Assembly (NCBI GenBank): GCA_044892525.1
Contig: CM097885.1
Location: forward strand, 32,490,001 to 32,554,000
Direction: 5' to 3'
Source of the DNA: Schmidtea polychroa
Lineage: Eukaryota
Length of the DNA: 64,000 nt
Part shown: positions 15,221 through 40,764 of the stretch, in pieces
Layout: each line of letters opens with the position of its first letter
Numbering within the stretch: position 1 is the first letter of the stretch
Translations under genes and position numbers: made by a program
The notes under the pieces: model-generated
The model's database searches: none
What the model was told of the DNA's origin: nothing
What the model saw: the letters and a program-made list of their open reading frames with translations, nothing else

Positions 15221-15552
15221 AGTAGTGAGGAATCTATGCACCCCAGCACCCCCACCCTCAAAAAAACAGCGCTATTGACCCATATTTTCCACATTTATAT
15301 GCTTTTTTACCCCATATTCTTCACTTTTTTTAACTTTTAAACTTTGTCCCCTATTGCCATTAACCCTTAATTTCTTCCCTTAAAAGTAAAAAAGTTCGGA
15401 ATAGATGTATTTATAGATTAGTAATTCCGAGAAAAGGTAACGGGGTGCATAGATTCCTCACTACTTGGTCTTAAGGATTAAATGTTATAAGGATTTAATG
15501 TTATAAGAATATCAGATTACCTAATTCATAATGATCTAGGTCGCCTGATCAC
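15221..15552 (+). repeat. Polinton left terminal inverted repeat (332 bp)
   Basis: Reverse complement of 29841-30173. By eye the only differences are a 1-nt A-run indel (A7 vs T8) and one G/A substitution. Confidence 0.95.
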
Positions 15553-15625
15553 TTTTAGATTTAAAAAAAATAAAAATTAATATCAAAACCAAAACATCGT
15601 ATCCAACCAAAAGATTCTTTTAAAA

Positions 15626-18600
15626 ATGGAAGCTATTTTCAATTGTGAAATTTGTGAAAAAAATTTTAAAAATAAAACTGCTTTAACATCTCATAAAAAA
15701 TCAAAAGACCATTTAATAAAAGCTAACACACTAGATGACACTAATTCCAAAATCTGTACTAAATGTAAGGATAGATATTTATTTTCAGGTTATAAGAAGC
15801 ATTTTAAAAATTGTATTGGAGTTCCTAAAAACAGAGAAATATTCGAATGTTCAGCATGTGGAAAAACGATGAGGATAAAATCTTTTTACTTAAGACACAT
15901 AGAAGATTGTGGTCTTGAAGCAAAAGATTCTGATTCAAACTCAATGACTGAAAAAGCTGAAAAACTAGAGTTTAATTGGGACAACTTCAATCACACCGAT
16001 GTAATTGCAGAAGTAAAACGAGGACCCAGATCAATCATGCAATATATAAGAGAAAATAAAAAAAAAATAATATCATCAATGGATGATGCTATAAAAAAAT
16101 TTGGTAGATCAAGATTTAATGTTATAAAAGTTAAATTTACAGGAAATGCAAAATACTGGAGAGGAGATGATTCGATCGCAATGCCTCTAGATGTAAAAAT
16201 TGAAACCTCATATAAATATTTATTTTCTACAAAAGCAGGAAATAAACTTGTTAATGATATAGCTAAAGAATTGGAAGAAAAACAAGAACAGGTGGAACAA
16301 GAACTAGGAGAATCTAATTTAAGATTCCACTCTTTTCAAAATATAGAGATTGAATACTGGAGAGGCGCACCACCAAATCCTAAATCTTTTATTCACACAC
16401 CATTCACCTCCAACCATGTTATAAATGTACAGAATAAAGATAATAAATGTTTTCAATGGTCAATACTTGCACACTTACATCCTCAAGCAACTAACCCACA
16501 GAGAGTTCAAAAATATGAAGAATATGAATCTGAATTAATTTATCCAAAAGATTTTTCCCACCCAATGAAAATTGAAGATGTTCCAGCATTTGAAAAATTA
16601 AATAATCTTAAAATTAATATTTATCAATTCATTCCAACCAAAATTACAAAAACTAGAAAAAATAAAAATTATAAACACATTATTCCTATTTACATTTCTA
16701 ACATGGAAATCTCAGATGAAAAGAGAGAAGTAGATCTTTTAATATTAGAAGAAGGTAAACCAGATGAAGACTTTGATGGAGAAGAATATGGTGAAGAGGT
16801 TCAAAGCGTTCACCCGAGGAGAGAAGCAGAAGAAGGCATTTCATTAGAACCAGAAGCAGAAAGCACTGCGTCCGGAGGCACTATGTTAGATAAAAAACTT
16901 CATTATATCTTAATAAAGAATTTTCAAAGTTTTATGAAAGGAAACACACTCATTCGTGGAGGCATATGTTGTAAAAGATGTTTATATCATTCAAGTTCAA
17001 AACTTGCTGCTATTAAACATGAGAGACTCTGTTGTAAGAATCAACCTGCTTTAATAAAAATGCCACACAAGAAAAATGCTAATATGAGGTTTAAAAACTA
17101 TTCCAATCTATTAGAAGCATTGGGAGTGGTTTATTGTGATTTTGAAGCTATAAATGTAAAACTAAGACGAACAAAAACTAATACTGTAAAACTAACAAAA
17201 CAATTACCCTCTGCTTATAAAATGTTTTTTAAAAGTAATTATCCAGAACTTGTAGAATCTAGAGAATATTCATTTAGAGGAACTTCTGACAAAGAGACTC
17301 TAGATCATTTTGTTAAAACTTTAAATAATCTAGAACATGAATTATATATAATATTAAAATCCAACTTTCCTATGAATTTTTCAGAAGAACAAGAGGAAGA
17401 ATATAAAAATGCAACACACTGCTGGATGTGTAAACAAGAGTTTGAGGATGAGGAGCCAAAGGTTGCAGACCATGATCATTTTAAAAGAGAAAATAATTAC
17501 AGAGGAGCAGCCCATAAAAATTGTAATCTCAATTGTAAAAAACCAACACACATACCATTTATATTTCACAATCTTTTTGGCTATGATATTCACCTATTCA
17601 TTAAGCATCTGGCCGCAAATGCTAAAAACTCTTTCAAGGTTATTGGACTTACAAAAGAAAAATATAAAAGCATTCAATATGGATGCTTTAAGTTTTTGGA
17701 CTCCTTAAATTTTTTAGGGATGTCTTTGGATGGCATTGCTAAAACTATGAACCCTGAGGATTTTAAATATACAAAAGAACATGTGTTATTAAAAAACAAT
17801 ATTCCATTAGAGGAATATAATACCTGTCTAGCAAAAGGAATCTATCCATATGATTATATAGACTCCTTTGAAAAATATAATGAATTACTCCCACCCCAAG
17901 AAGATTTCTTTTCTGTTTTAACACAATCAGGGATTTCTGATCAGGAATATTCCCGTGCAGTTAAAATGTGGAATCTATTTAACTGTAGAAACCTTGGAGA
18001 ATATACTGACATGTATCTTTCCTTGGATGTTTATATCTTAGCTGATTGCTTCGAGACATTTTCAAAAGCTTTTGAATTAAAACCTTATAATTATATAACC
18101 GCTCCCTCTCTAGCTTGGGATATATTATTATATACCATATGGACTGATGAAGATGTAGCAGTAAGAAATAAAACTATTGAATTATTAGTTGAGCTTGATA
18201 TGTTTAATGTATATAAACATAATATTAGAGGAGGTATTTCTTCAGTACAAGGGAATAGAGAAATAAATGCTAATAATTTTACAACTCTTTATCCTAAATT
18301 TTTCAAAGATCCTGATGCTCTATATGTAGAAATAACAAACCCAGAAGATCGTAAGGAAATAATGGAAGGTCTTTCTAATCCTTCTGAAATAATGTATATA
18401 GATGCAACAGCTTTATATGCGGGAGTAATGACTCAATACCTTCCAATTAGCAAGTTCACCTGGGAAGAGCCCACTGAGGAATTAATACAAGAAATTCTAA
18501 AAACACCAAAAGATTCTCAATTTGGATATGTCATAGAATGCGATCTTGAATATCCCAATGAAATAAAATCCAGGACAAGATTCTTTCCATTTGCTCCAGT

Positions 18601-20005
18601 AAGAAGAAAGATCTCGACTGAAGAACTTTCAGACTGGCAGATGGCTCAGGATAGATCGCCCTGTATAAAACTTTTATGCGATCAGACCGATAAAACTGAT
18701 TACCTTTGTCATTATAGACTCCTTCAGTTTTATCTCTCCCATGGAATGGTTTTAAAAAAAGTACATTCCATTATTAAATTTCGACAAGCCCCTTTTATGA
18801 AAAAATTCATAGAGGGAAATATTTTGAAAAGAAATGCAGCAAAGAGAGCTGGAAATGCATTTCTTGATATGATTTACAAACTCCTGAACAATGCGGTCTT
18901 TGGAAAGACCATGGAGAATATAGACAAGTACACACGTGTAGAGCTTTTGACCAATACATCCAAAGACCTTAATAGGTACAACCGGATAATTGGAAAGCCC
19001 ACATTTAAAAATGCCGAGATATTCTCTAGTAACCTTATAGCCATAGAGATTAAAAACTCTGTAAAAACTTATAATAAACCAATCTTTATAGGGTTTTCAA
19101 TTTTAGAACTTTCAAAGCTTCAAATGTATGAAGCCTACTATGATGTTCTAGTACCACATTTTGGAGATCGAATATCCATGCATGCTATGGACACTGATAG
19201 TATGTTTTTAAAAGGTCATAGTAAAGATTTAAAAAAGGAAATAAGTGAAAACGAAACCTTAAATAAATTAATAAACAACTCTGGAGAATTATTTACTTTT
19301 AAAGATGAAAAACCAAATACTCCAATAAGTGGAGGAGTGTTTATTAGACCTAAACAATATTCTCTTGAAATGAAAGACAAACCAATTATGAAAGAGCATA
19401 CAATAAAATTTATAATAGGGGAGGGAGAAGGATCTGTTGAAATAGATCACACATTTGAATATCCTTCATTCCCTGAAAACCCGAAAAGCTATAAAGAAAA
19501 TAAAAGTAAAGGAATTCAAAAATCAGTGTCAAAAACCTTCACACATCAAGAGTATAAAGATTCATTAAATATAAATTATAAAAATAAAATTGCTAAAACC
19601 CATCATCTTAAATCAGAGAAACATAATATATATCTTGAAGAGTGTAACAAGATTGCTATAACAAATTATGATGATAAAAGATTTATACTTTCTGACTTGA
19701 AGACAACATTACCTATTGGAAATGATTTAATCCCTATAATAAAAAATCTTGATAAAATAAATGAAATTTATAACCTAGAGATTACAGACCTTCAACTTGC
19801 TAAAGTAGAAATCCAATATCCTGAAATATTAATTCCTAAACCTTTATATAATCAAGTTCAAAATATAAAACCTATAGAACTTAAATATTTTAATACTGAT
19901 CCTGAATATATCCAAGGACTAACACCAGAAGACTTTAAATCACATAAATTAATGTTAAAAAGCATTACTGCAGAAATAATTATAAATCAATTACGACTGG
20001 TCTAA
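15626..20005 (+). CDS. pPolB: Protein-primed family B DNA polymerase (N-terminal C2H2 zinc fingers, TP/vOTU region, EndoVII-like insert, exo and pol domains)
   Basis: 1459 aa. Motifs: CEIC..H..H zinc finger; NKDNKCFQWSI...HYILIK (vOTU-like); YCDFE, HNLFGYD and YLSLDV exonuclease motifs; CWMC..DHDH..YRGAAH..CN endonuclease VII; YIDATALY, KLLNNAVFGK and DTDS polymerase motifs; DDKR. Confidence 0.97.
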   Translation: MEAIFNCEICEKNFKNKTALTSHKKSKDHLIKANTLDDTNSKICTKCKDRYLFSGYKKHFKNCIGVPKNREIFECSACGKTMRIKSFYLRHIEDCGLEAKDSDSNSMTEKAEKLEFNWDNFNHTDVIAEVKRGPRSIMQYIRENKKKIISSMDDAIKKFGRSRFNVIKVKFTGNAKYWRGDDSIAMPLDVKIETSYKYLFSTKAGNKLVNDIAKELEEKQEQVEQELGESNLRFHSFQNIEIEYWRGAPPNPKSFIHTPFTSNHVINVQNKDNKCFQWSILAHLHPQATNPQRVQKYEEYESELIYPKDFSHPMKIEDVPAFEKLNNLKINIYQFIPTKITKTRKNKNYKHIIPIYISNMEISDEKREVDLLILEEGKPDEDFDGEEYGEEVQSVHPRREAEEGISLEPEAESTASGGTMLDKKLHYILIKNFQSFMKGNTLIRGGICCKRCLYHSSSKLAAIKHERLCCKNQPALIKMPHKKNANMRFKNYSNLLEALGVVYCDFEAINVKLRRTKTNTVKLTKQLPSAYKMFFKSNYPELVESREYSFRGTSDKETLDHFVKTLNNLEHELYIILKSNFPMNFSEEQEEEYKNATHCWMCKQEFEDEEPKVADHDHFKRENNYRGAAHKNCNLNCKKPTHIPFIFHNLFGYDIHLFIKHLAANAKNSFKVIGLTKEKYKSIQYGCFKFLDSLNFLGMSLDGIAKTMNPEDFKYTKEHVLLKNNIPLEEYNTCLAKGIYPYDYIDSFEKYNELLPPQEDFFSVLTQSGISDQEYSRAVKMWNLFNCRNLGEYTDMYLSLDVYILADCFETFSKAFELKPYNYITAPSLAWDILLYTIWTDEDVAVRNKTIELLVELDMFNVYKHNIRGGISSVQGNREINANNFTTLYPKFFKDPDALYVEITNPEDRKEIMEGLSNPSEIMYIDATALYAGVMTQYLPISKFTWEEPTEELIQEILKTPKDSQFGYVIECDLEYPNEIKSRTRFFPFAPVRRKISTEELSDWQMAQDRSPCIKLLCDQTDKTDYLCHYRLLQFYLSHGMVLKKVHSIIKFRQAPFMKKFIEGNILKRNAAKRAGNAFLDMIYKLLNNAVFGKTMENIDKYTRVELLTNTSKDLNRYNRIIGKPTFKNAEIFSSNLIAIEIKNSVKTYNKPIFIGFSILELSKLQMYEAYYDVLVPHFGDRISMHAMDTDSMFLKGHSKDLKKEISENETLNKLINNSGELFTFKDEKPNTPISGGVFIRPKQYSLEMKDKPIMKEHTIKFIIGEGEGSVEIDHTFEYPSFPENPKSYKENKSKGIQKSVSKTFTHQEYKDSLNINYKNKIAKTHHLKSEKHNIYLEECNKIAITNYDDKRFILSDLKTTLPIGNDLIPIIKNLDKINEIYNLEITDLQLAKVEIQYPEILIPKPLYNQVQNIKPIELKYFNTDPEYIQGLTPEDFKSHKLMLKSITAEIIINQLRLV

Positions 20006-20029
20006 GAATTAGAATTTTAACACTATAAA

Positions 20030-20584
20030 ATGATGGAAACTAAAAATCAAGAAAATAACATTTTTGAAATTATAAAAAATATTACTAATTTAAAGGATAA
20101 CAGATGTAAAGGAATACAGAGAGTGGTTGCAAAGAATCTTTCTCATCAAGATTATATAGATACATTGAATCCAAATCATAAAGATAAAATTGATGAAATA
20201 CATCAACTTAAAAGTGAAAACCATGATATTCACTTGATAGAATCTCAAAAAGTATCATTATCAAATTATGATGATAAGAGATTCATACTAAGTGATTTAA
20301 AGACAACTCTACCTATTGGAAATAATTTAATCCCTATAATAAAAAATCTAGAAAAGTTGAATAAGTTATATGATACAAAGATTACTGATCTTGATATTTA
20401 TAATGTTGAAATTATTTATCCCGAGAGAGAAATCGAGAAACCTTTATATTCTCAAGTTTTTAATCCTATATGTTTAGAACTTAAATATTTTAATACTGAT
20501 CCTGAATATATAAAAGGTCTAAGTGATAAAGAATTTAAAGACCATAAATTAATGATTCATAGGTTGGCTTTCAACCATAACTGA
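20030..20584 (+). CDS. Stand-alone paralogue of the pPolB C-terminal (thumb plus extension) region
   Basis: 184 aa; aligns without gaps over ~155 aa to the pPolB residues encoded at 19493-19957 (about 60% identity by hand count); has its own TAAAATG start. Confidence 0.88.
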   Translation: MMETKNQENNIFEIIKNITNLKDNRCKGIQRVVAKNLSHQDYIDTLNPNHKDKIDEIHQLKSENHDIHLIESQKVSLSNYDDKRFILSDLKTTLPIGNNLIPIIKNLEKLNKLYDTKITDLDIYNVEIIYPEREIEKPLYSQVFNPICLELKYFNTDPEYIKGLSDKEFKDHKLMIHRLAFNHN

Positions 20585-20678
20585 AACCAACGATATTTAA
20601 TTTTTTAATAATAAAATGTCGACAATTAATTTAAGCAACTATAGCAACCTGATCTACTTTTTTAAAAATACACCCATT

Positions 20679-21275
20679 TTATAAGTAAGAATTCTTTAAC
20701 CATTTTTCTCGAGATGTTTTTTTATTACTTATAACATTAGCCACCATGCCCTCCCTTTTTAATCTTATAACCTCATTCTTTATATCTTGTATTATTTGAT
20801 TTGATTTCATTATTTCTTCGTCTGTCAGGATTCCATCTTCCAAAGCTTTTAATTGAAATAAAAATAATTTAGAGATTCCTAATTCTATTGATAAACAAAC
20901 TTCTCTATATAAACTTTTCTTTTTAGAAGTATAAGATAATGAAACTATTTCAGTTAAGAAACCATCAGCTACAGAAATACTTCCAAGTATTACTGGCGCA
21001 AGTGTTAAAACTGGTAAAGTTATGGGTAAAATAACTGTTAATATTGCAGATGCAAATCCTAAAGAATAACCTATAACTTTTAAAACTGTATTCCCTTTAT
21101 TCCATCTATTTTTAATTTTTTTATAATGCTTTAATAAATCTTGTAAATGTAAGGTTTCTGATTTAAATTCTTTTACTCTCATAATTTCAAGTTCTGTGGG
21201 AGCCGAGGCCTTGGAAGAATAATATCCTGATGATCTCAATTCTGGGTAAATTTTTTCTTCTCTTACTTCTTCCAT
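20679..21275 (-). CDS. Polinton hypothetical membrane protein (coiled coil plus two hydrophobic helices)
   Basis: 198 aa; hydrophobic VIGYSLGFASAILTVILPITLPVLTLAPVILGSISV segment followed by KALEDGILTDEE; tightly packed in the gene cluster with a TAAAATG start. Confidence 0.8.
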   Translation of the reverse strand: MEEVREEKIYPELRSSGYYSSKASAPTELEIMRVKEFKSETLHLQDLLKHYKKIKNRWNKGNTVLKVIGYSLGFASAILTVILPITLPVLTLAPVILGSISVADGFLTEIVSLSYTSKKKSLYREVCLSIELGISKLFLFQLKALEDGILTDEEIMKSNQIIQDIKNEVIRLKREGMVANVISNKKTSREKWLKNSYL

Positions 21276-21283
21276 TTTAATAA

Positions 21284-22294
21284 TTAAAAAAATAAGACTT
21301 TATTCTTCTGAGCACCATCTGGCACCAATACTCGGATATCAAAAGAAAATCTTGTTGAGAGGATGTCTTTATACAATTCTCTCAATGCTTTACGAACTTC
21401 ATCAACATCAACCTTTTTTTCATAAAATATTAAATCTATATATTGTACAAGTGAACTAGAAAAATGAATATTCTTACTTTTAACTTTATGTAGTCCATGT
21501 GAATGAGTATTAACATACCAATCTCCGTGTGGTAAATCATAACTAGTCATTATAACATCACCCTTTTCAAGCTTACTATTATAATCACATTTCACAAACC
21601 ATTTCATTCTTTCATTATCATCATCAAACAAAAAGAAATAAGGATCAATAATTTTTACAACCATAAAAACACCCCATTCTTTACTGTTTGTTGTTATTAA
21701 ACTTGGTTCTATAAAATGTTTATATGTATGGGGTAATAATGTTTTATTCTGTTCTAATTCAGCAGCTCTTTTTCTAATACTATGTGTGGTGTTAATGTGT
21801 GTTCCATGAGACTCTAAATTTGAAATTCTTTTATTAAATGATGTAATCATCTCATTTATTATATTATATATTGCATTAAATTTAGTATTCATAATTTGTT
21901 TATCTTTAGAATTTAATATAGCAGTATTTAACTTTACAACTTGTTCAGTTAACAGACTTTGTAACTTGTCAAATTTATCATTAAATCGTTGTTCGATATT
22001 ATTAAGCTTTGATTCCATTGAATCAATTTTTGTTGTTAATGAACTTTCAATTCTTGTTGTTGTTAAATCAGTATATTTTTTAACACCATCTACATATTTC
22101 TTATTAACTGCATCAGCTTCATCAGTTGGAAAAGATAATTCTTTTATCTTGTGTCCATTTAAAATTAAATCACCCTTCATTGAATCACCTCTTTCATTAA
22201 TATATTTATTTTCTGTTAAAGTTAATATTTCTTCTGTATTAAACCCTGTTTTTATTGTTCCACCACCTCTATTACATGGAATATAAGAACTCAT
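21284..22294 (-). CDS. Putative fibre/spike protein
   Basis: 336 aa; MKGDLILNGHKIKELSFPTDEADAVNKKYVD tail-fibre/adhesin neck-type motif, then a long coiled coil and a beta-rich C-terminal head; adjacent to the penton gene. Confidence 0.7.
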   Translation of the reverse strand: MSSYIPCNRGGGTIKTGFNTEEILTLTENKYINERGDSMKGDLILNGHKIKELSFPTDEADAVNKKYVDGVKKYTDLTTTRIESSLTTKIDSMESKLNNIEQRFNDKFDKLQSLLTEQVVKLNTAILNSKDKQIMNTKFNAIYNIINEMITSFNKRISNLESHGTHINTTHSIRKRAAELEQNKTLLPHTYKHFIEPSLITTNSKEWGVFMVVKIIDPYFFLFDDDNERMKWFVKCDYNSKLEKGDVIMTSYDLPHGDWYVNTHSHGLHKVKSKNIHFSSSLVQYIDLIFYEKKVDVDEVRKALRELYKDILSTRFSFDIRVLVPDGAQKNKVLFF

Positions 22295-22318
22295 TTATTA
22301 ATAATTTAAAATGAATCT

Positions 22319-23083
22319 TCAAACCTGTTTCAAATGTAAATACATTGAAATCTCTTCTCCATTAAAATCAATCAATTCTCCTTCTTGATTAAGAATTTTA
22401 AAATTAATATCCATTATATATTTTCTACATAAAGGTAAATAATTTGGAGGATTCATTCTTTCAACTATTTTATATCCCATAGGAACTGTGTTTGAGGGAA
22501 AGGAATATAAAACATTTGTTTGTTTACCATTATTATAAGAACCTGTTATACAATCGCAATGAATATTTATTGTGTTTGTATTTATTATTTTGATAATATG
22601 TTCTGATGTTATTATTTTATCTTCTTTTATTGTTATATCCATAGGTTTAAATCCTAAAACTGTGTGAAAGAAACAATTATCTAAAAAACTAATTTTTATA
22701 TTCTTCAAAGTCATTACACATTTTGAAGTTGGTATATCCATTTTAATTTTAATTCCTTCATTTGTTTTTTTAGAAAGTATATCATTTAAATCTTTTATCT
22801 CATATGCCCCAGGTTCTATTGTTATAATTTCTGGTTTATGCCCATCACGAGTTTGAATAGTAAATTTATTATTATCTTTAGTTATATTAAAAATAGTATT
22901 ATAAGCACAAAACCATAATAGCCCCAATTCATAATTTAAATTTTGATCTAATTTAATTGAATCTTGAAAGTTTATAGTAAACTCTGATTCTTTTGAATTT
23001 ATAGATAAAGTTCTTGAATATTTATCTGACATTATGTTTACCATTTTTTTTAAATTATCTTCCGGAGGGTTGTGAAGCTCCAT
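22319..23083 (-). CDS. Minor capsid protein (penton, single jelly-roll)
   Basis: 254 aa; YELGL, IEPGAYEI.DLN, INIHCDCITGSY.NG and YLPL...I.F.I.NQ.GELIDFNGE motifs typical of Polinton mCP. Confidence 0.9.
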   Translation of the reverse strand: MELHNPPEDNLKKMVNIMSDKYSRTLSINSKESEFTINFQDSIKLDQNLNYELGLLWFCAYNTIFNITKDNNKFTIQTRDGHKPEIITIEPGAYEIKDLNDILSKKTNEGIKIKMDIPTSKCVMTLKNIKISFLDNCFFHTVLGFKPMDITIKEDKIITSEHIIKIINTNTINIHCDCITGSYNNGKQTNVLYSFPSNTVPMGYKIVERMNPPNYLPLCRKYIMDINFKILNQEGELIDFNGEEISMYLHLKQV

Positions 23084-23131
23084 TTCTTTAGTAGTAAATT
23101 CATATAGTAAAAATCCTTATAGTAAAAATCC

Positions 23132-24499
23132 TTATAGTAGAGATTCTAGATCATTATAAATTTCTTGAATTATAGATTCAAAATCCTGCGTATGCCCCTT
23201 TCCCTCTCCCTTATTCAATCTATACAAAACATATAAACTTAAAATACCACATATTTTAGTATTCAAAGGTTGAACTTGTAAAGAGTTAAAAGTATAACCA
23301 TTTGGGGAATCAATCGGAGAACCCCTCAAGAGATAATCTTCAACTTCTTTAGTAGGTTTAATCCCAAAAGAATCAAAGTAGATAGATTTCTTATATATAC
23401 AAACCCAATGAGATCCTTTTTCATTTGAATTTTGATAATTGATTATTATATTCAGGGGACTCTCCAGACTTGATAATTCATCATTCATTAATATTTTAAT
23501 TTTTAAATTTAAATAATTTGCATAATCTTTTAAATCAAAATTTGTTTTTGCATTTATTCCAAATGTTTTTAAAAAATCTAATATTGAAGGAGTCATTTTG
23601 TATTTTAAAACTTCGTATTTATACTTCGTATACTTATTAAATTTATCTTTTGAAATTATTCCTTGTTTTAACAAATCTTTAGAAATCTTTAAAATATCAG
23701 AATCTAAATTATTATGTCCTGCTTTCCTTGCAGCTAATAGTTTTCTTAATTCAATAAAAAGATTGATGGGATTTGGTTTACCACCTTCACTAATTAATCC
23801 CTCTCCCTCTGTAACAACATAACCCTTTTCATTTTTATTTAAATAATTCTTTAAATCTTGAATATATTTTGCTTTAGAACTAGCTCTTATTAATCTTATT
23901 AAATTTAAATATTTTTTAATTTCTTCAACATCATCTGAAGAATATCCACAAAGTAATCTATAAAAATCATCTGTAAATTCAAAGTCTAAATATTCATTAT
24001 TATAAACATTTTGTGAATGAATACGTGATTTATTTTCTGAATTTGAATATAAAGTAAAGTTTTGTTTATTAATTGTTATTATTTGATATCCTTCAGTATT
24101 AGTATTAAATGTGGGTCTAATTGAAGGAGGTAAATCATCTCTAATTTTAGGATCAACTTTAAGAGGTTTTGTTTTTAAAAACATTTCTTCTTCTTCCACA
24201 TTAGAAATTCTTCTGCGTTTTCTTTGATTTCTTTCAGGATGGTTTTCACTGGATTCTTTTTCTTTATCCTGCCACTCTAGTTCTTTTATTTTTTGTTTTT
24301 TATCTTCTAACTCTTTAAATTTTGCTTGCTCATTGAAATCTTCCAACTCTTTTATAGCTTTAATTGTTGGCCCCTGTTGTTGTGTTATTACCTCATTTAA
24401 TATTATAGATTCAGCATGTTGAGTTGTATCTTTTTTATTATATTTATCTTGTTCTGATTGTAATTTTTTTAAAAGTGCTAATCTTTCTTCATATACCAT
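23132..24499 (-). CDS. Fusion of a Polinton conserved protein (L..LLA...AGxN motif) with a C-terminal adenain-like cysteine maturation protease
   Basis: 455 aa. LRKLLAARKAGHNN...LLKQGII precedes GSHWV, YFDSFG and Q....ICG (catalytic H/D/C plus oxyanion Q). There is an in-frame AAAATG at 23596. Confidence 0.88.
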   Translation of the reverse strand: MVYEERLALLKKLQSEQDKYNKKDTTQHAESIILNEVITQQQGPTIKAIKELEDFNEQAKFKELEDKKQKIKELEWQDKEKESSENHPERNQRKRRRISNVEEEEMFLKTKPLKVDPKIRDDLPPSIRPTFNTNTEGYQIITINKQNFTLYSNSENKSRIHSQNVYNNEYLDFEFTDDFYRLLCGYSSDDVEEIKKYLNLIRLIRASSKAKYIQDLKNYLNKNEKGYVVTEGEGLISEGGKPNPINLFIELRKLLAARKAGHNNLDSDILKISKDLLKQGIISKDKFNKYTKYKYEVLKYKMTPSILDFLKTFGINAKTNFDLKDYANYLNLKIKILMNDELSSLESPLNIIINYQNSNEKGSHWVCIYKKSIYFDSFGIKPTKEVEDYLLRGSPIDSPNGYTFNSLQVQPLNTKICGILSLYVLYRLNKGEGKGHTQDFESIIQEIYNDLESLL

Positions 24500-24521
24500 T
24501 TTAATGGTATCAAAAATGGTA

Positions 24522-25115
24522 TCATTTTGGTAAAGGATCCGTTGGAAAGGGCTTCAAGTATAAACCTTTGCCATTTTTAGTTTTACAAAGACATCCATTC
24601 TTTAAAGATTTACATATTTTTTTTAAATCTTCTTTATCTTTTGAAGATAAAGATTCAGATGTAGAAATTTGATTTTTTAAAAAATCATTTAAACCTCTAC
24701 CTTTATAAGGATCAAGATAGAGACCTTTGCCCTGAGACTTTTGCCGACTCCCCTCATATGGATTAAGATAGAGACCCTTTCCAACGGACACTCCCCCTTT
24801 AGCTTGCCCTACCTTCTTCATTGAATCGATTTCAGTTTGAAGTTTTTCTTTTTCTAGGTCTGTCTTTTGAGATTCTTTAGCTTTTTGAACTGTAGTTGCA
24901 ATTCCTCCAGCTATTCCAGCAGCACCTGATAAACCAGCAATGATTGCAGGTATTAAAGCAGCTAATGGAAGAATGCCACCTTCTTTAGCTTCGTGGATCT
25001 TCGCTCTAACTTGTTCTTTTACATGTTTTCCAATAAAATATTTTTTACCATCAATTACTACTGATTTATTTTTATTTGAATTTATTAATTCTTGCAAAGA
25101 TTCTTCAGTTGTCAT
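24522..25115 (-). CDS. pX/Mu-like virion core protein with GKGLYL repeats
   Basis: 197 aa; EGGILPLAALIPAIIAG resembles the adenovirus pX GG(F/I)LP hydrophobic motif; three GKGLYLxP repeats. Confidence 0.75.
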   Translation of the reverse strand: MTTEESLQELINSNKNKSVVIDGKKYFIGKHVKEQVRAKIHEAKEGGILPLAALIPAIIAGLSGAAGIAGGIATTVQKAKESQKTDLEKEKLQTEIDSMKKVGQAKGGVSVGKGLYLNPYEGSRQKSQGKGLYLDPYKGRGLNDFLKNQISTSESLSSKDKEDLKKICKSLKNGCLCKTKNGKGLYLKPFPTDPLPK

Positions 25116-25130
25116 TTTATAATAAACAAA

Positions 25131-25922
25131 ATGGATATTTGGAAACCAATTTTAAATAGACATAAGAGTAAATTTAATAATAAAGTATTTCCTGATAATT
25201 TTAGATTATTAATTGTTGGTTCTTCTGGATGTGGAAAGAATGTACTTGTTTTGAGAATGTTACTTGAAGATGATTTTTTAGATTATAATAATTTAATCTT
25301 TTATTCTACAACCATAAATCAACCAGAATTACAACTTTTGAAATGTGGATTTGAAAATAAATTAACTAAAAAAGCAATAATTGATATTTTTAAAAATCAA
25401 CATAGGTGTCCTGAAGAAGTTTTTCAACCTTGTGATATGGTTGATTGGTATAAGGAAAAGATTTTAGAATCAGATATTAGTAATAAAAATGATTATATTT
25501 GTGAAGAAGGGCAGGAGGCAATTCAAGTTTTATTCTCTAATAAACCTGAAGATGTTTTACATTGTGATTTACTTCCTAAAGATAAAAAGAATCTAGTTAT
25601 ATTTGATGATGTTGTTAATATGAAAAATCAAGAGATTCAAAAGAGTTACTTTACACGAGGTCGACATAATAATTGTAATGTTATTTATATATCTCAAACA
25701 TATTATGCTTTAGATAAAAATTCAATAAGAAATAATTCCAATTGTTTTATATTTTTTAAATTAGATCGCCGTGATAAGAATATGATTTATAATGATTTAT
25801 TTTCAAATGTTGAACCTGATAAGAATATGTTTGATATGTTTGTTGATAATCATTGGAAAGAAAAATATAATTATATTTATTTGGATAGAGAAGAAGCTGA
25901 AATATGGAAAAGTTTGTTTTAG
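25131..25922 (+). CDS. FtsK/A32-like genome packaging ATPase
   Basis: Walker A GSSGCGKN, Walker B LVIFDD, FTRGRH arginine finger, SQ and IRNN motifs. The ATG at 25131 (AAAATG) is preferred over the TTG at 25092. Confidence 0.93.
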   Translation: MDIWKPILNRHKSKFNNKVFPDNFRLLIVGSSGCGKNVLVLRMLLEDDFLDYNNLIFYSTTINQPELQLLKCGFENKLTKKAIIDIFKNQHRCPEEVFQPCDMVDWYKEKILESDISNKNDYICEEGQEAIQVLFSNKPEDVLHCDLLPKDKKNLVIFDDVVNMKNQEIQKSYFTRGRHNNCNVIYISQTYYALDKNSIRNNSNCFIFFKLDRRDKNMIYNDLFSNVEPDKNMFDMFVDNHWKEKYNYIYLDREEAEIWKSLF

Positions 25923-25933
25923 GGCTTGTCGAC

Positions 25934-26896
25934 TTAAAAATCTGTTTTCTGTAGTTCATTATTATAAAATCTACCTAATATTTTTTCATTATTTAAATCA
26001 AAGATGCTATATGTTATTGGAGTTGTATAATGTATTTTATTTATAATAAAAATTTCATTTGTCCATTTTGCTGTGAATCCTTTTTCAAATTTATTTTTAT
26101 ATTTAAATATTCTTACTCGGTCACCAATTTTAAACTTTGGTTTTTCAATAACATCATTTTCAATATTTACCACTTTAATGGTTTCAGGCTTCATGGAAGC
26201 ATTTAAAGGTGTTAATTTTATAGAACTATGTACATCATTATTATATTCATTTACAATCTTTTGTAACAATTCATTGTTCCATTTTTGTTTTCCAATAGCA
26301 GTAAAATATTTCCACATTTTATTTTTTAATGTTCTATTTAATCTTTCAACTACGACTGCTTTTCCTTCGTTTTCTGTTGAATATAATTTAATATCATTTT
26401 CATTTAAAAACTTTGTAAAAACTTTGTTATAAAATTCTGTTCCTTTATCACACCATAAATATTTTGGGATTCTTTGATTTTCTTCAAATATATTTTCAAA
26501 TGCTTCTGTAATAGAATATCCTGTTTTATTTTCTAAACATCTTGCAAAAGCAAATCTTGTATATAAATCTATTACAGTTAAAATTATTTTATATTTTTCA
26601 GGGTCTGATGATTTGGGCATAAAGACTAAATCTGCAGACCATGTTTGATCTTTTTCATGTACTTGAACTTTTAAATATTTTTTATTTTTTCTAAATTCAT
26701 GGTGTAATTCCTTTGCATATTTTATTTCTGATTCTGTTGGGGTTTGTAAACTAGTCTTGGCTGTACTCTCGAGGGATCTTTCAATCTCTGCTTGTTCGAT
26801 AATCTTTTTATAAGCAACATCTTTTGCTTTCCTAGGAAGTCTTGCACCCATGGTGATCGGACTGTGTCCTAAGCCTATGAAAATCTTACCTTTCAT
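25934..26896 (-). CDS. int: Retroviral-type (rve) DDE integrase, probably the 3' part of a PLA2-integrase fusion
   Basis: WSADL, WCDKGTEF and VVERLNRT (DDE triad), HSSI..TP, FKIGDRVRI, FEKG...W..EIF; no chromodomain. Confidence 0.95.
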   Translation of the reverse strand: MKGKIFIGLGHSPITMGARLPRKAKDVAYKKIIEQAEIERSLESTAKTSLQTPTESEIKYAKELHHEFRKNKKYLKVQVHEKDQTWSADLVFMPKSSDPEKYKIILTVIDLYTRFAFARCLENKTGYSITEAFENIFEENQRIPKYLWCDKGTEFYNKVFTKFLNENDIKLYSTENEGKAVVVERLNRTLKNKMWKYFTAIGKQKWNNELLQKIVNEYNNDVHSSIKLTPLNASMKPETIKVVNIENDVIEKPKFKIGDRVRIFKYKNKFEKGFTAKWTNEIFIINKIHYTTPITYSIFDLNNEKILGRFYNNELQKTDF

Positions 26897-26917
26897 TGCT
26901 AATTTAACTAGAGCTCT

Positions 26918-27319
26918 TTAAATCTTTTCTTGGGTTGATGGATTTTGGATACTATTTAAATCATGTATTAAATTCACATCTGCAACATGTCTATCTCTAA
27001 GATTTGTTGAATTGTATGCAATGTCATATTTTAAAGCTGCTTGATCAATTCTATTTATTGGTTCTTCTCCTTGTTTGGGATTATTATTTTCATCTAATCT
27101 AATATCTAATCTTGTTCCTGGTCCAGTATAGTTGTGTTTAAATAAATGTCTTTCACCTGGATATTTTTCTGTAGTAAAAGGTTTTAATATTGAAGATGTT
27201 GTTTTTGAAGATTGCAAATCGCCTCCTGTATGTTTTTTAGTTTTAAGATGGCTTGCTTTATGATGTCTTGTAACTTGACAATTACAAGTTTCACATCTCC
27301 AATATTTATTTAAAGACAT
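26918..27319 (-). CDS. Zinc finger plus parvovirus-like phospholipase A2 domain, in frame with the integrase across one TAA
   Basis: CETC..H.....H finger, then HNYTGPGT.L..RL, PINRID.AALKYDIAY and R..AD. The catalytic HD appears as YD. The TAA at 26918-26920 is followed in frame by RALVKLAMKGK..GLG. Confidence 0.85.
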   Translation of the reverse strand: MSLNKYWRCETCNCQVTRHHKASHLKTKKHTGGDLQSSKTTSSILKPFTTEKYPGERHLFKHNYTGPGTRLDIRLDENNNPKQGEEPINRIDQAALKYDIAYNSTNLRDRHVADVNLIHDLNSIQNPSTQEKI

Positions 27320-27348
27320 TTTAAAATGTTAAAATATCAGGGATTATA

Positions 27349-28641
27349 TCAAGAATCTCCCCTAACATTTTCGATTATTGAAATCTTTCCACCATATAAT
27401 TTCATTTCTATTTTCTTTTCTTCTAATATTAATGTATATACTTTAGCTTTAAAATTAGAATCCTTTGTTACATGAAGTGTAACATCAACATTATTTATGG
27501 CTAGGCGATCATCTTGGTCTGAAACATTTATACAAAATATAGAATATAAATTTTTGAAATCTTCTAAACTTAATTGCGGTTCAACTTTGAAATCATAACA
27601 TGTTTCAATATAATTTAGATATGGGAATATGTTTTCATTATTTTCAATATTAAATTCCATTCTATTTATTGGATAATAAGAACTATTTAATTGAATTTGG
27701 ATTGTTTTTAAATTATCAACTCCAATCTTTTGAATAAACAAGTTGTTATTTTTTTGAAAAGATGAATCTACTTCTTTGAATCCAATCAAGATATATCTTG
27801 GTCGGTATGCTAAATTTGCTACCTTTATAGAATATGTTGAACCCTCTGTCATACTAAATTCACTACAGATTCTATTTAAATAATTTACATTTATAGACTT
27901 GTTGGAATTTAATCTTTCAAGGAGTTTAATCTCAGAATGTGGGTTTAATGTCCATTCAGGTATATGTAATTCAAGTGTTGATAATTTTAATTTAGCTTTT
28001 GTATCTACAGCTCCATAGAACAATCTTTTATCACCTTCTACTCTATTACAGATGAATTCTATAAAAACATTATGAAGTATACGATTATAGTTTTGAAGGA
28101 ATCCAAACAAGTGTTTTAATTCAAAATAACCTTCAAATTTTTTAGATTTATAAAGTTCAGCTCTTTTATAGTAACCATGGTTTACATCTAAACCATCTTT
28201 ATCTAAATCCCCTTTATTAACATCAGGAATCCAACCTGTTAATTCACCATATTCATTTTTATAATCACAACCAGTCAAAATAAAATTTAACATTGTAGAA
28301 TATACTCCCGGATGTAAAACAGCTTCAATTTCTGATGATCCTAGTTTTAATCTCATATTGGAGAATAAATTTGGAAAGAAATTATTTTCTAGGGTTATAT
28401 CTTTGTTTGCTTCAATTTCTAATTCGATTTTATAATATAATTTGGCATTACAAATATCTATAGGGTTTGATGTTTGAAGAGATTGAAAAACTATATCACC
28501 CCTACGATTTAAGTTTGCAATAGATCCTGAAGTTGGGGAGATTTTAAGTACATCGTTTTTCTTGATTTCATGAGTAAATTCTTTATTATAATCAAGATTT
28601 AATTTATTTTTTTCTTGAATTTTAAGATTTATATTATTCAT
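27349..28641 (-). CDS. Major capsid protein (double jelly-roll)
   Basis: 430 aa beta-rich ORF; NNFFPNLFS..RL.LG...IE, LKHLFGFL..Y, PRYILIGF, LN...YP and F..LYSIFCI.VS motifs typical of Polinton MCP. Confidence 0.9.
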   Translation of the reverse strand: MNNINLKIQEKNKLNLDYNKEFTHEIKKNDVLKISPTSGSIANLNRRGDIVFQSLQTSNPIDICNAKLYYKIELEIEANKDITLENNFFPNLFSNMRLKLGSSEIEAVLHPGVYSTMLNFILTGCDYKNEYGELTGWIPDVNKGDLDKDGLDVNHGYYKRAELYKSKKFEGYFELKHLFGFLQNYNRILHNVFIEFICNRVEGDKRLFYGAVDTKAKLKLSTLELHIPEWTLNPHSEIKLLERLNSNKSINVNYLNRICSEFSMTEGSTYSIKVANLAYRPRYILIGFKEVDSSFQKNNNLFIQKIGVDNLKTIQIQLNSSYYPINRMEFNIENNENIFPYLNYIETCYDFKVEPQLSLEDFKNLYSIFCINVSDQDDRLAINNVDVTLHVTKDSNFKAKVYTLILEEKKIEMKLYGGKISIIENVRGDS

Positions 28642-28697
28642 TTTTATATATTAAAATTTACACACACACAATAGGATTAATTAAATATATTATGTAA

Positions 28698-28771
28698 GCC
28701 ATTATAGCGGAGTGGGAATAGGCTTCAATTTTATCACCGGGAGTACCGGGTTCAATTTTCGATTTTGGTCA
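28698..28771 (+). ncRNA. tRNA-like Pol III unit 1 (Asp/Glu-like 3' half)
   Basis: A-box TAGCGGAGTGG (28705), B-box GGTTCAATT (28749), GCCA/TGGT acceptor pairing and a T7 terminator at 28773; anticodon arm degenerate. Confidence 0.65.
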
Positions 28772-28931
28772 ATTTTTTTCGATATTTTTTTTTCAACGGA
28801 ATCTGATTCAGCGTACTGATTTTAGTATATATTTAAATTTTCAGATGGATCTGAGTGGTAGTTGTCGAGAAAATGAATAATTAATTATTAATTTCATCAA
28901 TAAATAGTCACACATTAACAACTTATTTCAT

Positions 28932-29005
28932 ATTGAGTATAGCTTAGTGGTAATAGCACTCGACTGCATTGCCAATACCAATGGGTTCAAATCCCATTTC
29001 GGTCA
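28932..29005 (+). ncRNA. tRNA-like Pol III unit 2 (tRNA-Cys-like)
   Basis: A-box TAGCTTAGTGG (28940), D-stem GCT/AGC, CTGCA anticodon-like loop, perfect T-arm ATGGG-TTCAAAT-CCCAT and a T8 terminator at 29006; anticodon stem unpaired. Confidence 0.8.
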
Positions 29006-29172
29006 TTTTTTTTCAAATTTTTTTTTTAAACAAAATATTGATCAGCATACTCGATTTAGTACTTGTACAAATTTTAAAGGTGATTGGTCAACGGCAACTC
29101 TTGGAAATTTAAGATCAAAAACGTTTTAACTTGAATCGATTATTTATAGTCTAAAAAATGACAAAAATTCAA

Positions 29173-29245
29173 ACCTTGATGGCGCAGTGGGCTAGACTGA
29201 CACAGTGGTTCAAATAGATAGCGGTTCAAATCCTAACTGTGGTTA
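29173..29245 (+). ncRNA. tRNA-like Pol III unit 3
   Basis: A-box TGGCGCAGTGG (29180), B-box GGTTCAAATCC (29223), ACC/GGT acceptor pairing and a T8 terminator at 29247. Confidence 0.7.
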
Positions 29246-29413
29246 GTTTTTTTTCAACATAAAAATAATATTAAAAATTTGAAAATAATAGTGTGGGTAT
29301 CTTATATTTATAAAGTACTTGTATATTTTATTTTATTTATTTTATTTTATTTTATTTTTTTATTAATTAATTATTTTTTAAACATAAATATGAAAAAAAA
29401 AATATTGAAACGG

Positions 29414-29486
29414 GTGATGGTGGCGAACCGGTAATTATCGCCACCTGTCTTTCGAACACCCCCGGATCGATTCTATAATGTGCACA
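29414..29486 (+). ncRNA. tRNA-like Pol III unit 4 (Asp-like), possibly with an extended 3' trailer
   Basis: A-box TGGCGAACCGG (29421), TATCGCCACCTGTC resembling the tRNA-Asp anticodon arm 5' side, B-box-like GGATCGATTC (29464), and an 8-bp hairpin GGTGGCGA/TCGCCACC. No immediate long T-run. Confidence 0.55.
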
Positions 29487-29840
29487 TTTATTTCTTGGTT
29501 GTTTTCGGACCTCTTTCGGATTCGCTTTCGAATTCATTTGTACTTTCGAGCAGCACGCTTAAAACGCCGTTGAAATCGACTTCGTGAGCGAGAAGCGAAT
29601 AATAAGGCGTGCTGCTATTATCGGATTGATTCTGATGTATGAGTCTGGCCAGCTTGTATATTGGAAGAGATTTGATAAACGAAAGAGGTTGATAAATAAA
29701 AAAAAAATGATCCGGATCAAAAAAAACTGTTGAGGGGACAGTGAAAAAAAAAAAAAAAAAAAAAAAATACCACTGTCCCCTCAGAGCAGTTTTACTATTT
29801 TCATAAAATTTTTAATTTTTAAAACTTTCAAAACCTTAAG

Positions 29841-30173
29841 GTGATCAGGCGACCTAGATCATTATGAATTAGGTAATCTGATATTCTTATAACATTAAAT
29901 CCTTATAACATTTAATCCTTAAGACCAAGTAGTGAGAAATCTATGCACCCCGTTACCTTTTCTCGGAATTACTAATCTATAAATACATCTATTCCGAACT
30001 TTTTTACTTTTAAGGGAAGAAATTAAGGGTTAATGGCAATAGGGGACAAAGTTTAAAAGTTAAAAAAAGTGAAGAATATGGGGTAAAAAAGCATATAAAT
30101 GTGGAAAATATGGGTCAATAGCGCTGTTTTTTTTGAGGGTGGGGGTGCTGGGGTGCATAGATTCCTCACTACT
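29841..30173 (-). repeat. Polinton right terminal inverted repeat (333 bp)
   Basis: Reverse complement of 15221-15552. Confidence 0.95.
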
Positions 30174-34590: not shown

Positions 34591-34591
34591 A

Positions 34592-40102: not shown

Positions 40103-40333
40103 AATTATTATAGAAGCTGTATAAAAAAAATTAATTTTAAAAAGCATTTCATAAAATACAATAAAGAATATTTAGTTGATTGTTGGTACTTGGTTGTTTT
40201 TACTTGGTTGTTTGAGAGTTAGTACGTGGTATCATGTTGTTAGTATTTGGTACTTATTTGTCAGCACCTAGTTAAAAATATTTAGTAACCGATTGTTGGT
40301 AACTGTTGAATTATAATTATTATTATTTTAATT

Positions 40334-40412
<79 letters not shown>

Positions 40413-40764
40413 TTATTATTATTCCATTTAAATTTTCATTTGACTTTGAAAAATATTTCATTGAAATTAACTTAAAAAATAAAATTTCCATTTAAATTTT
40501 CATTAAAAATTACATTTCTCAAAAAAGTTGGTGGTTATTCAAACTTTTGATAATAAATTTAAAAATCTTAGTTTAATTTACTTATTTAGCTTTAATTTAA
40601 AATTTGAACCATTGGTTACTAAATTTTAAATTTTGAGCCTTAATTTCCTTAATTTATCCTTAATTTACCTAATTATTCTTTATTACTAACTTTTTACACC
40701 ATAATTTACTTAACAACTAATTATAACCATTATTTTCATATTTAACCAATAATTTCATGTGGTC

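What the first reader, a model, noticed from the sequence alone, without database searches (positions are those of the whole stretch)
28698..29486. Polinton carries a regularly spaced array of four divergent tRNA-like Pol III genes: a candidate VA-RNA-like small-RNA system
Seen in sequence: between the MCP start and the right TIR are four units, each with an A-box and a B-box at tRNA-like distance (~43 nt). The A-boxes sit at 28705, 28940, 29180 and 29421, spaced 235, 240 and 241 bp, all on the + strand. Units 1-3 end in T7-T8 terminators. The units differ strongly from each other (Cys-like, Asp/Glu-like) and have broken anticodon arms, yet they keep the promoter boxes and terminators. The spacers after units 1 and 2 are related (TCAGCGTACTGATTTTAGTA vs TCAGCATACTCGATTTAGTA), implying old tandem duplication. 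Established: adenoviruses, relatives of Polintons, make Pol III VA RNAs that counter PKR/Dicer; MHV68 makes tRNA-miRNA TMERs; tDNA/TFIIIC sites act as chromatin barriers. Inference: these may be non-translational viral small RNAs acting against RNAi or silencing, or a phased TFIIIC insulator protecting the divergent capsid genes. I know of no description of such an array in Polintons.
Basis: partly seen in the sequence, partly recalled or inferred. Interest (0 to 1): 0.9.

Follow-up and report, generated by a model that had tools for sequence, protein, structure and literature searches.

The report
Polinton Pol III RNA cassette
A virus-like transposon carries a row of worn-down tRNA look-alikes at its end: two are near-identical to units in the host's ribosomal-DNA spacer, and the last is the promoter end of a long folded RNA whose base pairing is kept across copies, which suggests the element makes its own regulatory RNA as adenoviruses do.

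Summary
The four A/B-box units are real: the only such pairs in 64 kb, with 0 of 400 shuffles reaching four. They lie in a complete 15-kb Polinton of a very high-copy family. They are not one array.

U1-U2 (28653-29132) is 97-98% identical to a tRNA-like array in the host rDNA intergenic spacer. It is an optional module in the family, most likely captured from rDNA.

U3 and U4 are the element's own. U4-head copies sat in family context in 30 of 30 loci, 12 of them at the polymerase end, so the cassette often occupies both termini, facing outward.

U4 is not an 80-nt unit. It heads a ~290-385-nt structured RNA candidate. Common variants keep base pairs (9 of 10, mostly G·U on the + strand), and a 61-nt hairpin folds on that strand only. 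It is not a tRNA, SINE or SRP derivative by the tests run.

Spacing is loose (205-306, or ~485). Distant Polintons sampled lack such units.

Best reading: a Polinton Pol III RNA working like VA/EBER/TMER as a double-stranded-RNA decoy; the short units probably act in cis. Transcription and function are not shown.

The parts
15221..30173 (.). Complete Polinton/adintovirus-type element, 14,953 bp, AGTAGT...ACTACT ends, 6-bp target duplication AAGTTT
15221..15580 (+). Left TIR of this copy; short type, without U3/U4
15626..20005 (+). Protein-primed DNA polymerase B with N-terminal JAZ-type zinc finger
27349..28641 (-). Double-jelly-roll major capsid protein, head-to-head with the Pol III units (ATG 64 bp from the U1 A-box)
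28653..29132 (+). U1-U2 module shared with the host rDNA intergenic spacer (269 of 275 and 189 of 194 columns identical); optional in the family
28698..28779 (+). U1: A-box 28705-28715, imperfect B-box 28749-28759, T7 at 28773
28933..29013 (+). U2: tRNA-Cys-derived; A-box 28940-28950, B-box 28984-28994, T8 at 29006; D-arm half and T-arm kept, acceptor and anticodon stems broken
29171..29254 (+). U3: A-box 29180-29190, B-box 29223-29233, a second B-like motif near 29207, T8 at 29247; Polinton-own, 1-2 copies per arm
29410..29795 (+). U4: candidate long Pol III RNA; A-box 29421-29431, B-box 29464-29474; 3' end inferred at the T4/T4/T5/T5 cluster 29790-29820, an internal T4 lies at 29502
29549..29616 (+). 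U4 hairpin with G-C / G·U / A-U interchange at 29557-29608
29618..29678 (+). U4 61-nt G·U-rich hairpin, folds on + only (-23.1 vs -2.1 kcal/mol); five pairs switch G·U to Watson-Crick across copies
29723..29793 (+). Terminal hairpin with A-rich loop, compensatory change at 29735-29779, followed by T-runs; folds equally on both strands
29812..30173 (-). Right TIR of this copy

Best explanation
The arm is a composite Pol III cassette. Shown: U4 has an internal type-2 (A/B-box) promoter at the head of a ~290-385-nt region whose + strand pairing is conserved; U3+U4 travel together just inside the ends of this family, often at both ends, facing outward; U1-U2 is an optional module shared with the host rDNA spacer. 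Inferred: host Pol III transcribes U4 into an abundant, imperfectly double-stranded RNA that works like adenovirus VA RNA, EBERs or TMERs, as a decoy or substrate that occupies Dicer, other dsRNA-binding proteins or Argonaute loading and so blunts silencing of the element. U3 and the captured U1-U2 have lost tRNA structure and most likely add TFIIIC/TFIIIB-bound open chromatin beside U4 and the divergent capsid and polymerase starts, rather than making a needed RNA.
For: Boxes beyond chance; U2, U3 and U4 match the broad recalled consensuses fully. U4 folding z = -4.29, 0 of 200 shuffles; the opposite strand z = -1.28; alignment energy -107 on + vs -76 on - over 33 copies. On 108 distinct rows and 96 confident pairs, variants in >=3 rows keep pairing in 10 of 18 cases vs 7 of 40 singletons (Fisher p = 0.005); 9 of 10 variants in >=8 rows keep pairing, 2 by double change and 7 by G·U interchange. 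3094 U4-head and 3422 U3 matches genome-wide; family context in 30 of 30 and 25 of 25 loci; 12 of 30 beside the polymerase start, 13 of 30 beside MCP. The cassette is 80-95% conserved across copies whose polymerase genes are only ~70% identical and whose outer TIRs do not align. Host tRNA genes end in T6-T7, so read-through of the internal T4 is plausible. VA RNAs are ~160-nt structured Pol III RNAs that inhibit PKR and are Dicer substrates (PMC4378190 passages). Polintons are piRNA-silenced in a planarian (PMC8532177 passages); that the host is a planarian is my untested guess.
Against: No transcript, end, strand or Pol III occupancy is shown. An internal T4 at 29502 could stop Pol III after ~95 nt. 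Paired columns are not less variable than other columns (18 of 188 vs 17 of 164), and 8 of 18 shared variants break pairs, 3 of them in the doubtful stem 29501-29504/29694-29697. The longer region also folds on the minus strand (z -3.6 and -6.1, n = 40 shuffles). Copies are close relatives that recombine, so alleles are not independent events. Some copies lack much of the 29549-29616 hairpin (L040, L133, L229). No such units in 38 distant metagenomic MCP loci (104 kb, partial) or in other Polinton families in 200 kb of this genome. The anti-silencing target is analogy only; PKR is vertebrate-specific as I recall.
Confidence: 0.5

Rival explanations
1. The cassette acts mainly at the DNA level: TFIIIC/TFIIIB sites at both ends form tDNA-type barriers or nucleosome-free platforms that shield the inward-facing polymerase and capsid promoters from host heterochromatin; the host uses a like array in its rDNA spacer, and the element borrowed it.
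For: U3-U4 at both ends, head-to-head with MCP and pPolB. Cloverleafs broken while boxes are constant: U3 boxes 2 of 22 vs unit ends 11 of 19 variable columns, p = 0.002. Unit number varies freely. The same units sit mid-spacer in rDNA, 2.9 kb from the 18S start and 3.2 kb from the 28S end. A cis effect of the Pol III promoter is left open for TMERs too (PMC4337559 passage). tDNA barriers are recalled, not read.
Against: Does not explain 300+ nt of strand-specific conserved pairing in U4. Spacing is not phased strictly. The window's own subfamily has no units at its left end yet has at least 40 near-identical copies. Boxes are no more constant than the downstream spacer (p = 1).
Confidence: 0.25
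2. The U4 structure works in single-stranded DNA during strand-displacement replication or packaging (the U4 sense strand is always near a 3' end), and the tRNA-like boxes are relics.
For: Position just inside the TIRs at both ends. The terminal hairpin folds equally on both strands (z -9.9 / -9.7). G-T wobble is tolerated in DNA hairpins too.
Against: Full A and B consensus matches at tRNA distance at the very start of the structure and T-runs at its end; core B-box letters invariant among shared variants; the window's subfamily replicates with it at one end only.
Confidence: 0.1
3. Neutral passengers: captured tRNA pseudogene and rDNA spacer pieces that hitch-hiked through a copy-number burst. 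Likely for U1-U2 taken alone (about 0.5), unlikely for U4.
For: U1-U2 is optional and recent (few shared variants: 10 of 436 columns). A second Polinton family holds an unrelated 704-bp rDNA spacer piece in one copy, absent from its sister copy, so such captures happen. U1's B-box is imperfect.
Against: Pair-preserving variation in U4. U1/U2 show 0 of 147 columns with shared variants vs 10 of 289 in their spacers (p = 0.02). U3-U4 is kept across divergent polymerase and TIR types.
Confidence: 0.12
4. The units are copies of a dispersed host SINE or of SRP RNA.
For: U4 has a tRNA-like head, a body and A-rich tracts, like a SINE; its length and overall shape resemble SRP RNA.
Against: 30 of 30 U4, 25 of 25 U3 and 25 of 25 exact U2 loci are in family context (the first matches along C1, not a random sample). 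U4 vs host SRP RNA scores no better than shuffles (151 of 500); no SRP family among 18 Rfam matches at E <= 10.
Confidence: 0.03

Closest known systems
Adenovirus VA RNA I/II
   Same: Structured non-coding RNA from an internal Pol III promoter in a linear dsDNA element with protein-primed polymerase; long imperfect stems suited to dsRNA-binding proteins and Dicer (PMC4378190 passages).
   Different: About twice as long (290-385 vs ~160 nt); no Rfam VA match; sits in the termini, often twice per genome; transcription and target unknown.
MHV68 TMERs
   Same: Cluster of tRNA-like, non-translational Pol III units at a genome end, interspersed with a small ORF; tRNA-like head followed by hairpins (PMC4337559 passages).
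   Different: U4's head folds as hairpins, not a cloverleaf; U1-U3 end in T7-T8 with no downstream hairpin; units are unlike one another; miRNA output untested.
EBV EBER1/2
   Same: Structured Pol III RNA ending in U-run, tandem genes.
   Different: Longer, no sequence match, different virus class.
tRNA genes in polinton-like viruses and MELD viruses
   Same: tRNA-related sequence in polinton-class elements: 558 tRNA matches in 8300 PLV/virophage genomes, read as codon compensation (PMC12220804 passages); predicted tRNAs flagged in a MELD figure (PMC8502044 passage).
   Different: Those are called as tRNAs; these fail ARAGORN and Rfam cut-offs, come as an ordered terminal cassette with a long RNA, and are exchanged with host rDNA.
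tDNA/TFIIIC chromatin barriers (recalled)
   Same: Intact boxes, boundary position.
   Different: Carried by a mobile element; activity untested.

Membership tests
Polinton/adintovirus | pPolB plus retroviral-type integrase | tested here: met
   PF03175 E 1.5e-13; PF00665 E 4e-12
Polinton/adintovirus | Packaging ATPase and double-jelly-roll capsid | tested here: met
   PF04665 E 9.7e-9; PF21738 E 6.3e-26; PLA2-like PF08398, the Alpha-type accessory in PMC8502044
Polinton/adintovirus | TIRs with AG...CT ends and 6-bp target duplication | tested here: met
Polinton/adintovirus | Adenain-type protease, minor capsid | tested here: inconclusive
   No Pfam hit for the 455-aa and 254-aa ORFs; assigned by eye only
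Functional tRNA | Cloverleaf with acceptor and anticodon stems | tested here: not met
   ARAGORN 0; Rfam 26.7 < 29 bits, U2 only; folds; acceptor-equivalent columns are the most variable in U3
VA RNA | Internal A/B-box Pol III promoter | tested here: met
   By sequence only
VA RNA | Stable, conserved secondary structure | tested here: met
VA RNA | ~160 nt and homology to the VA family | tested here: not met
   290-385 nt predicted; no VA family among 18 Rfam matches at E <= 10
VA RNA | Abundant Pol III transcript; PKR or Dicer antagonism | not testable with these tools
   Only contigs of runs with guessed RNA status were available
TMER | 5' tRNA-like cloverleaf co-transcribed with pre-miRNA hairpins | tested here: not met
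   Downstream hairpins present, but U4's head is not a cloverleaf
TMER | Mature miRNAs, RNase Z processing | not testable with these tools
   No raw small-RNA reads
tRNA-derived SINE | Dispersed, context-independent copies | tested here: not met
   30 of 30, 25 of 25, 25 of 25 loci in family context; the U2 excess is rDNA
SRP (7SL) RNA derivative | Similarity to host SRP RNA | tested here: not met
   151 of 500 and 426 of 500 shuffles as good
tDNA barrier | TFIIIC occupancy and barrier activity | not testable with these tools
   Boxes present by sequence only

The most novel reading that the evidence does not exclude
An animal Polinton encodes its own VA-like Pol III RNA in its terminal repeats and trades tRNA-like Pol III modules with a previously unnoticed antisense array in the host's rDNA spacer. 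With about 3000 gene copies the RNA could be a major host Pol III transcript that titrates small-RNA silencing, and the exchange would be a living model of how adenovirus-like elements obtain VA-type genes from host tRNA-derived units.
Probability: 0.33. Interest if true: 0.9.

Novelty: new variant of a known kind. Interest (0 to 1): 0.72.

Why it matters
Polintons are known almost only by their proteins, and how integrated copies cope with host silencing is open. A structured Pol III RNA under pairing constraint in thousands of copies gives a direct, cheap test (northern blot, small-RNA reads, Pol III ChIP). The exchange with the rDNA spacer shows a route for capture of Pol III units and points to an undescribed tRNA-like array in several hundred host rDNA repeats.

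Tried and rejected
Expression: no RNA holder listed; this is no evidence either way. Four runs with guessed RNA status were laid as contigs (4 of 13 listed). Contigs cover U4 in all four: 29418-29523 (X2), 29405-29588 (X3), 29412-29622 with 4 differences at depth 3.8 (X5, labelled as another organism, possibly carry-over). Summed depth over 29461-29781 is in the thousands in X1 and X2 (one study) against 0-840 over the coding part, but the tool states that contig depth cannot rank genes and DNA may be present, so I do not use it; U2 cover could also come from rDNA.

Distant relatives: viral contigs gave no MCP relative and no U4 pattern match. 38 metagenomic MCP loci had no A/B pair at <=3 total mismatches; relaxed ARAGORN there gave 51 low-threshold calls, largely inside ORFs where mapped, treated as noise. 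DNA for the 73-75% identical MCPs (P0002, P0003) could not be fetched. Searching the own genome with divergent MCPs returned only this family. Other families in C1:225-425 kb gave only weak hits (total 3 mismatches, non-tRNA spacing) and one orphan U0.

SRP origin of U4: rejected. Homology of U0 to the U1/U2 spacers, seen by eye: not significant (104 and 490 of 500); a 14-nt U0/U3 upstream match (6 of 500) does not survive the 26 comparisons. A first U3 box-conservation count was circular and contaminated by U0/U1 rows and was replaced. The MCP tree needs at least 6 changes of the module label and has only a midpoint root, so it is weak on direction. The small slot ORF found no convincing family.

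Full report
The element. Window 15221-30173 is a complete Polinton/adintovirus-type element with ~360-bp TIRs, AGTAGT...ACTACT ends and a 6-bp target duplication. Pfam finds a type-B polymerase, A32-like ATPase, rve integrase, PLA2-like protein and double-jelly-roll capsid. The family is very abundant in the 781-Mb host genome: the 40 best matches to the arm are 99-100% identical and capsid searches list over 3000 candidates.

The observation. They are the only pairs in the window at <=1 and <=3 mismatches, and 0 of 400 shuffles of the arm gave four. U1-U3 end in T7-T8. None is a tRNA. U2 derives from tRNA-Cys: 49 of 76 columns match the host gene, almost letter for letter from the A-box to the anticodon. 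U2, U3 and U4 fit the broad recalled consensuses; U1's B-box does not.

The array is modular. Among 42 loci picked by capsid similarity (some fetched twice), 14 were U1-U2-U3-U4, 13 were U3-U4 with or without a small ORF, 8 had U3 twice and no U1-U2, and 7 were other or truncated. Spacing is loose: U1>U2 226-245, U2>U3 237-240 or 474-492 when the ORF intervenes, U3>U4 205-306. Host tRNA arrays have periods of 278-424 bp, so ~240 may simply be tight packing of Pol III units.

U3-U4 belong to the element, often at both ends. The U4 head has 3094 matches and U3 3422 (backward controls 0). The first 30 U4 loci along C1 all lie in family context: 13 beside the capsid start, 12 beside a polymerase start, 5 in truncated or rearranged copies. 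The first 25 U3 and 25 exact U2 loci are also in family context. These are positional, not random, samples. In many copies U3-U4 is thus part of a long TIR, facing outward and head-to-head with the inner genes; the window's subfamily has it on the right only. This disposes of the dispersed-SINE reading.

U1-U2 is shared with host rDNA. U2 had 3264 matches, more than the element explains. The excess is a one-letter variant with 1480 exact matches in ~13-kb tandem repeats, which are rDNA units. In 5 of 5 fetched spacers that span the site there is an array U0-U1-U2-U2(-U2), antisense to the rRNA, spaced 237-244 bp. It matches window 28653-29132 at 269 of 275 and 189 of 194 columns, and the match ends where Polinton copies with and without the module diverge. 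U0 matched none of 152 Polinton loci; U3-U4 gave only one 34-bp AT-rich hit per locus in 16 of 17 rDNA loci.

Direction of the exchange. For rDNA as donor: the module is optional in the element and occurs at two positions (L229); it has few shared variants there (10 of 436 columns, against 46 of 200 third codon positions in the capsid gene) although its two spacers are only ~73% alike; a decayed spacer copy at 90% already joins the module's tail to downstream spacer (L111); the deepest capsid clade lacks it; and another Polinton family holds a different rDNA piece. Against: a diverged orphan U0 stops 8 bp short of the module, U0 is not demonstrably related to the U1/U2 spacers, both placements in the element share the same left boundary, and the tree is midpoint-rooted with at least 6 label changes. 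I put rDNA-to-Polinton at about 0.8. Note e1-7879910 concerns the same family (its place falls in L115/L173), so it is not independent.

U4 is a long structured RNA candidate. 29408-29700 folds at -97.2 kcal/mol, z -4.29, 0 of 200 shuffles; its reverse complement has z -1.28. With the terminal hairpin the region runs to 29795 and is followed by T4, T4, T5, T5; one internal T4 lies at 29502. Host tRNA genes use T6-T7, so read-through is plausible but not shown. On 108 distinct rows from 162 loci and 96 pairs of probability >=0.8, variants in three or more rows keep pairing in 10 of 18 cases and singletons in 7 of 40 (p = 0.005). Of 10 variants in eight or more rows, 9 keep the pair: two double changes (29557-29608, which also shows the G·U intermediate, and 29735-29779) and seven G·U interchanges. 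The 61-nt hairpin 29618-29678 folds at -23.1 on + and -2.1 on -. Limits: copies are related and recombine, all changes are transitions, paired columns vary as often as others (18 of 188 vs 17 of 164), one lower stem is broken by shared variants, the terminal hairpin is strand-symmetric, longer windows also fold on the minus strand (z -3.6, -6.1), and some copies lack much of one hairpin. U4 is not related to host SRP RNA and matches no Rfam family convincingly.

U3. Shared variants touch 2 of 22 box columns, both compatible with the broad consensus, against 11 of 19 columns where an acceptor stem would lie (p = 0.002), but the downstream spacer is equally constant (6 of 67). This fits a kept promoter without a kept tRNA fold, and is weak evidence on its own.

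Breadth. No such units were found in 38 metagenomic loci with capsids 19-52% identical (partial contigs, other gene orders) or in other Polinton families within 200 kb of this genome. The cassette is so far family-specific. Expression could not be shown; see Tried and rejected.

Mechanism. Shown: promoter motifs, terminal geometry, conserved + strand pairing in U4, exchange of U1-U2 with rDNA. Inferred: Pol III transcription, a ~385-nt (or ~290-nt) product, and action as a dsRNA decoy or Dicer substrate against host silencing (0.5). The main rival is a cis barrier or promoter-opening role (0.25), which may hold for the short units alongside the first. Earlier notes of a Polinton-encoded TBP (e1-7879962) and a captured SRP head (e1-7879908) in other families of this genome suggest repeated use of Pol III-related parts; I tested neither.

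Literature. Searches: Polinton + VA RNA, 0 papers; adintovirus + tRNA, 5; Schmidtea + Polinton, 13; Maverick + transposon + tRNA-derived + TIR + Pol III, 1; Polinton + non-coding RNA + RNA polymerase III, 4 general reviews; rDNA + intergenic spacer + tRNA-like, 13; planarian + ribosomal DNA + intergenic spacer + tRNA, 2; Maverick + Polinton + small RNA + tRNA gene + captured, 1; planarian + Maverick + genome assembly + transposable elements, 6; TMER/VA terms, 29 with 12 listed. One search timed out. I saw term passages only of PMC12220804, PMC8502044, PMC8532177, PMC8232201, PMC4378190, PMC4337559 and bioRxiv 10.64898/2025.12.11.693146, and listings for the rest. None of what I saw describes this cassette or the spacer array. 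I opened no supplements; Tables S11-S12 of PMC12220804 list PLV non-coding RNAs and could bear on novelty, and repeat-database reports and subscription journals are outside the library.

Verdict. A real, family-wide feature and a new variant of a known kind (viral Pol III non-coding RNA clusters). It is not a member of the VA, TMER, tRNA, SINE or SRP families by the tests run, but U4 most likely works like VA/EBER. Interest 0.72.

Noticed in passing
L252:4837-5880 (G000:C220), also L253-L256: The host rDNA intergenic spacer carries its own array U0-U1-U2-U2(-U2) of tRNA-like units, antisense to the rRNA, spaced 237-244 bp; 1480 exact matches of the rDNA-type U2 and 783 U0 candidates genome-wide.
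   Followed up: yes
L229:1204-1733: One divergent copy carries the U1-U2 module outward of U4 instead of next to MCP, with a slightly longer rDNA-matching right end.
   Followed up: partly
L267 (G000:C1:292457-293160 and 290986-291250): A 704-bp rDNA spacer piece (99%) lies inside a Polinton of another family and is absent from its sister copy; a diverged orphan U0 (89%) lies just outside that element and stops 8 bp before the U1-U2 module would start.
   Followed up: partly
L111:2-232: A decayed rDNA spacer piece (90%) already joins the module's tail to the downstream spacer.
   Followed up: partly
L123, L134, L031 (slot between MCP or U2 and U3): A small coiled-coil-like ORF of about 83-98 aa occupies one ~245-bp slot in many copies and is absent from the window's copy; no convincing family in the Atlas.
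   Followed up: partly
window 15626-15720: The polymerase begins with a zinc finger matching the dsRNA-binding JAZ family PF12171 (25.3 bits, cut-off 22.6); a possible partner of the U4 RNA, untested.
   Followed up: no
window 20030-20584: This 184-aa ORF looks like a diverged duplicate of the polymerase's C-terminal part (by eye).
   Followed up: no
L031, L040, L116, L133: Outer TIR sequences differ completely among subfamilies, and two polymerase types (~70% DNA identity) occur, while capsid and U3-U4 are shared: modular recombination.
   Followed up: partly
window 32414-43325: Large nested inverted repeat with arms of 773 and 454 nt at 100% complementarity, a foldback element.
   Followed up: no
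window 13067-14053: Single-ORF fatty acid hydroxylase / sterol desaturase family gene 1.2 kb from the element's left end.
   Followed up: no
G000:C1:269.25 Mb, C4:76.66 Mb, C333, C2:31.93 Mb: Host Pol III genes stand in long tandem arrays: tRNA-Cys 281 bp (994 pattern matches), tRNA-Lys 424 bp, tRNA-Arg 278 bp, SRP RNA 593 bp.
   Followed up: partly
L234 near 1500: A 22-33-nt U2-like A-box fragment beside an unrelated element end, outside both this family and rDNA.
   Followed up: no
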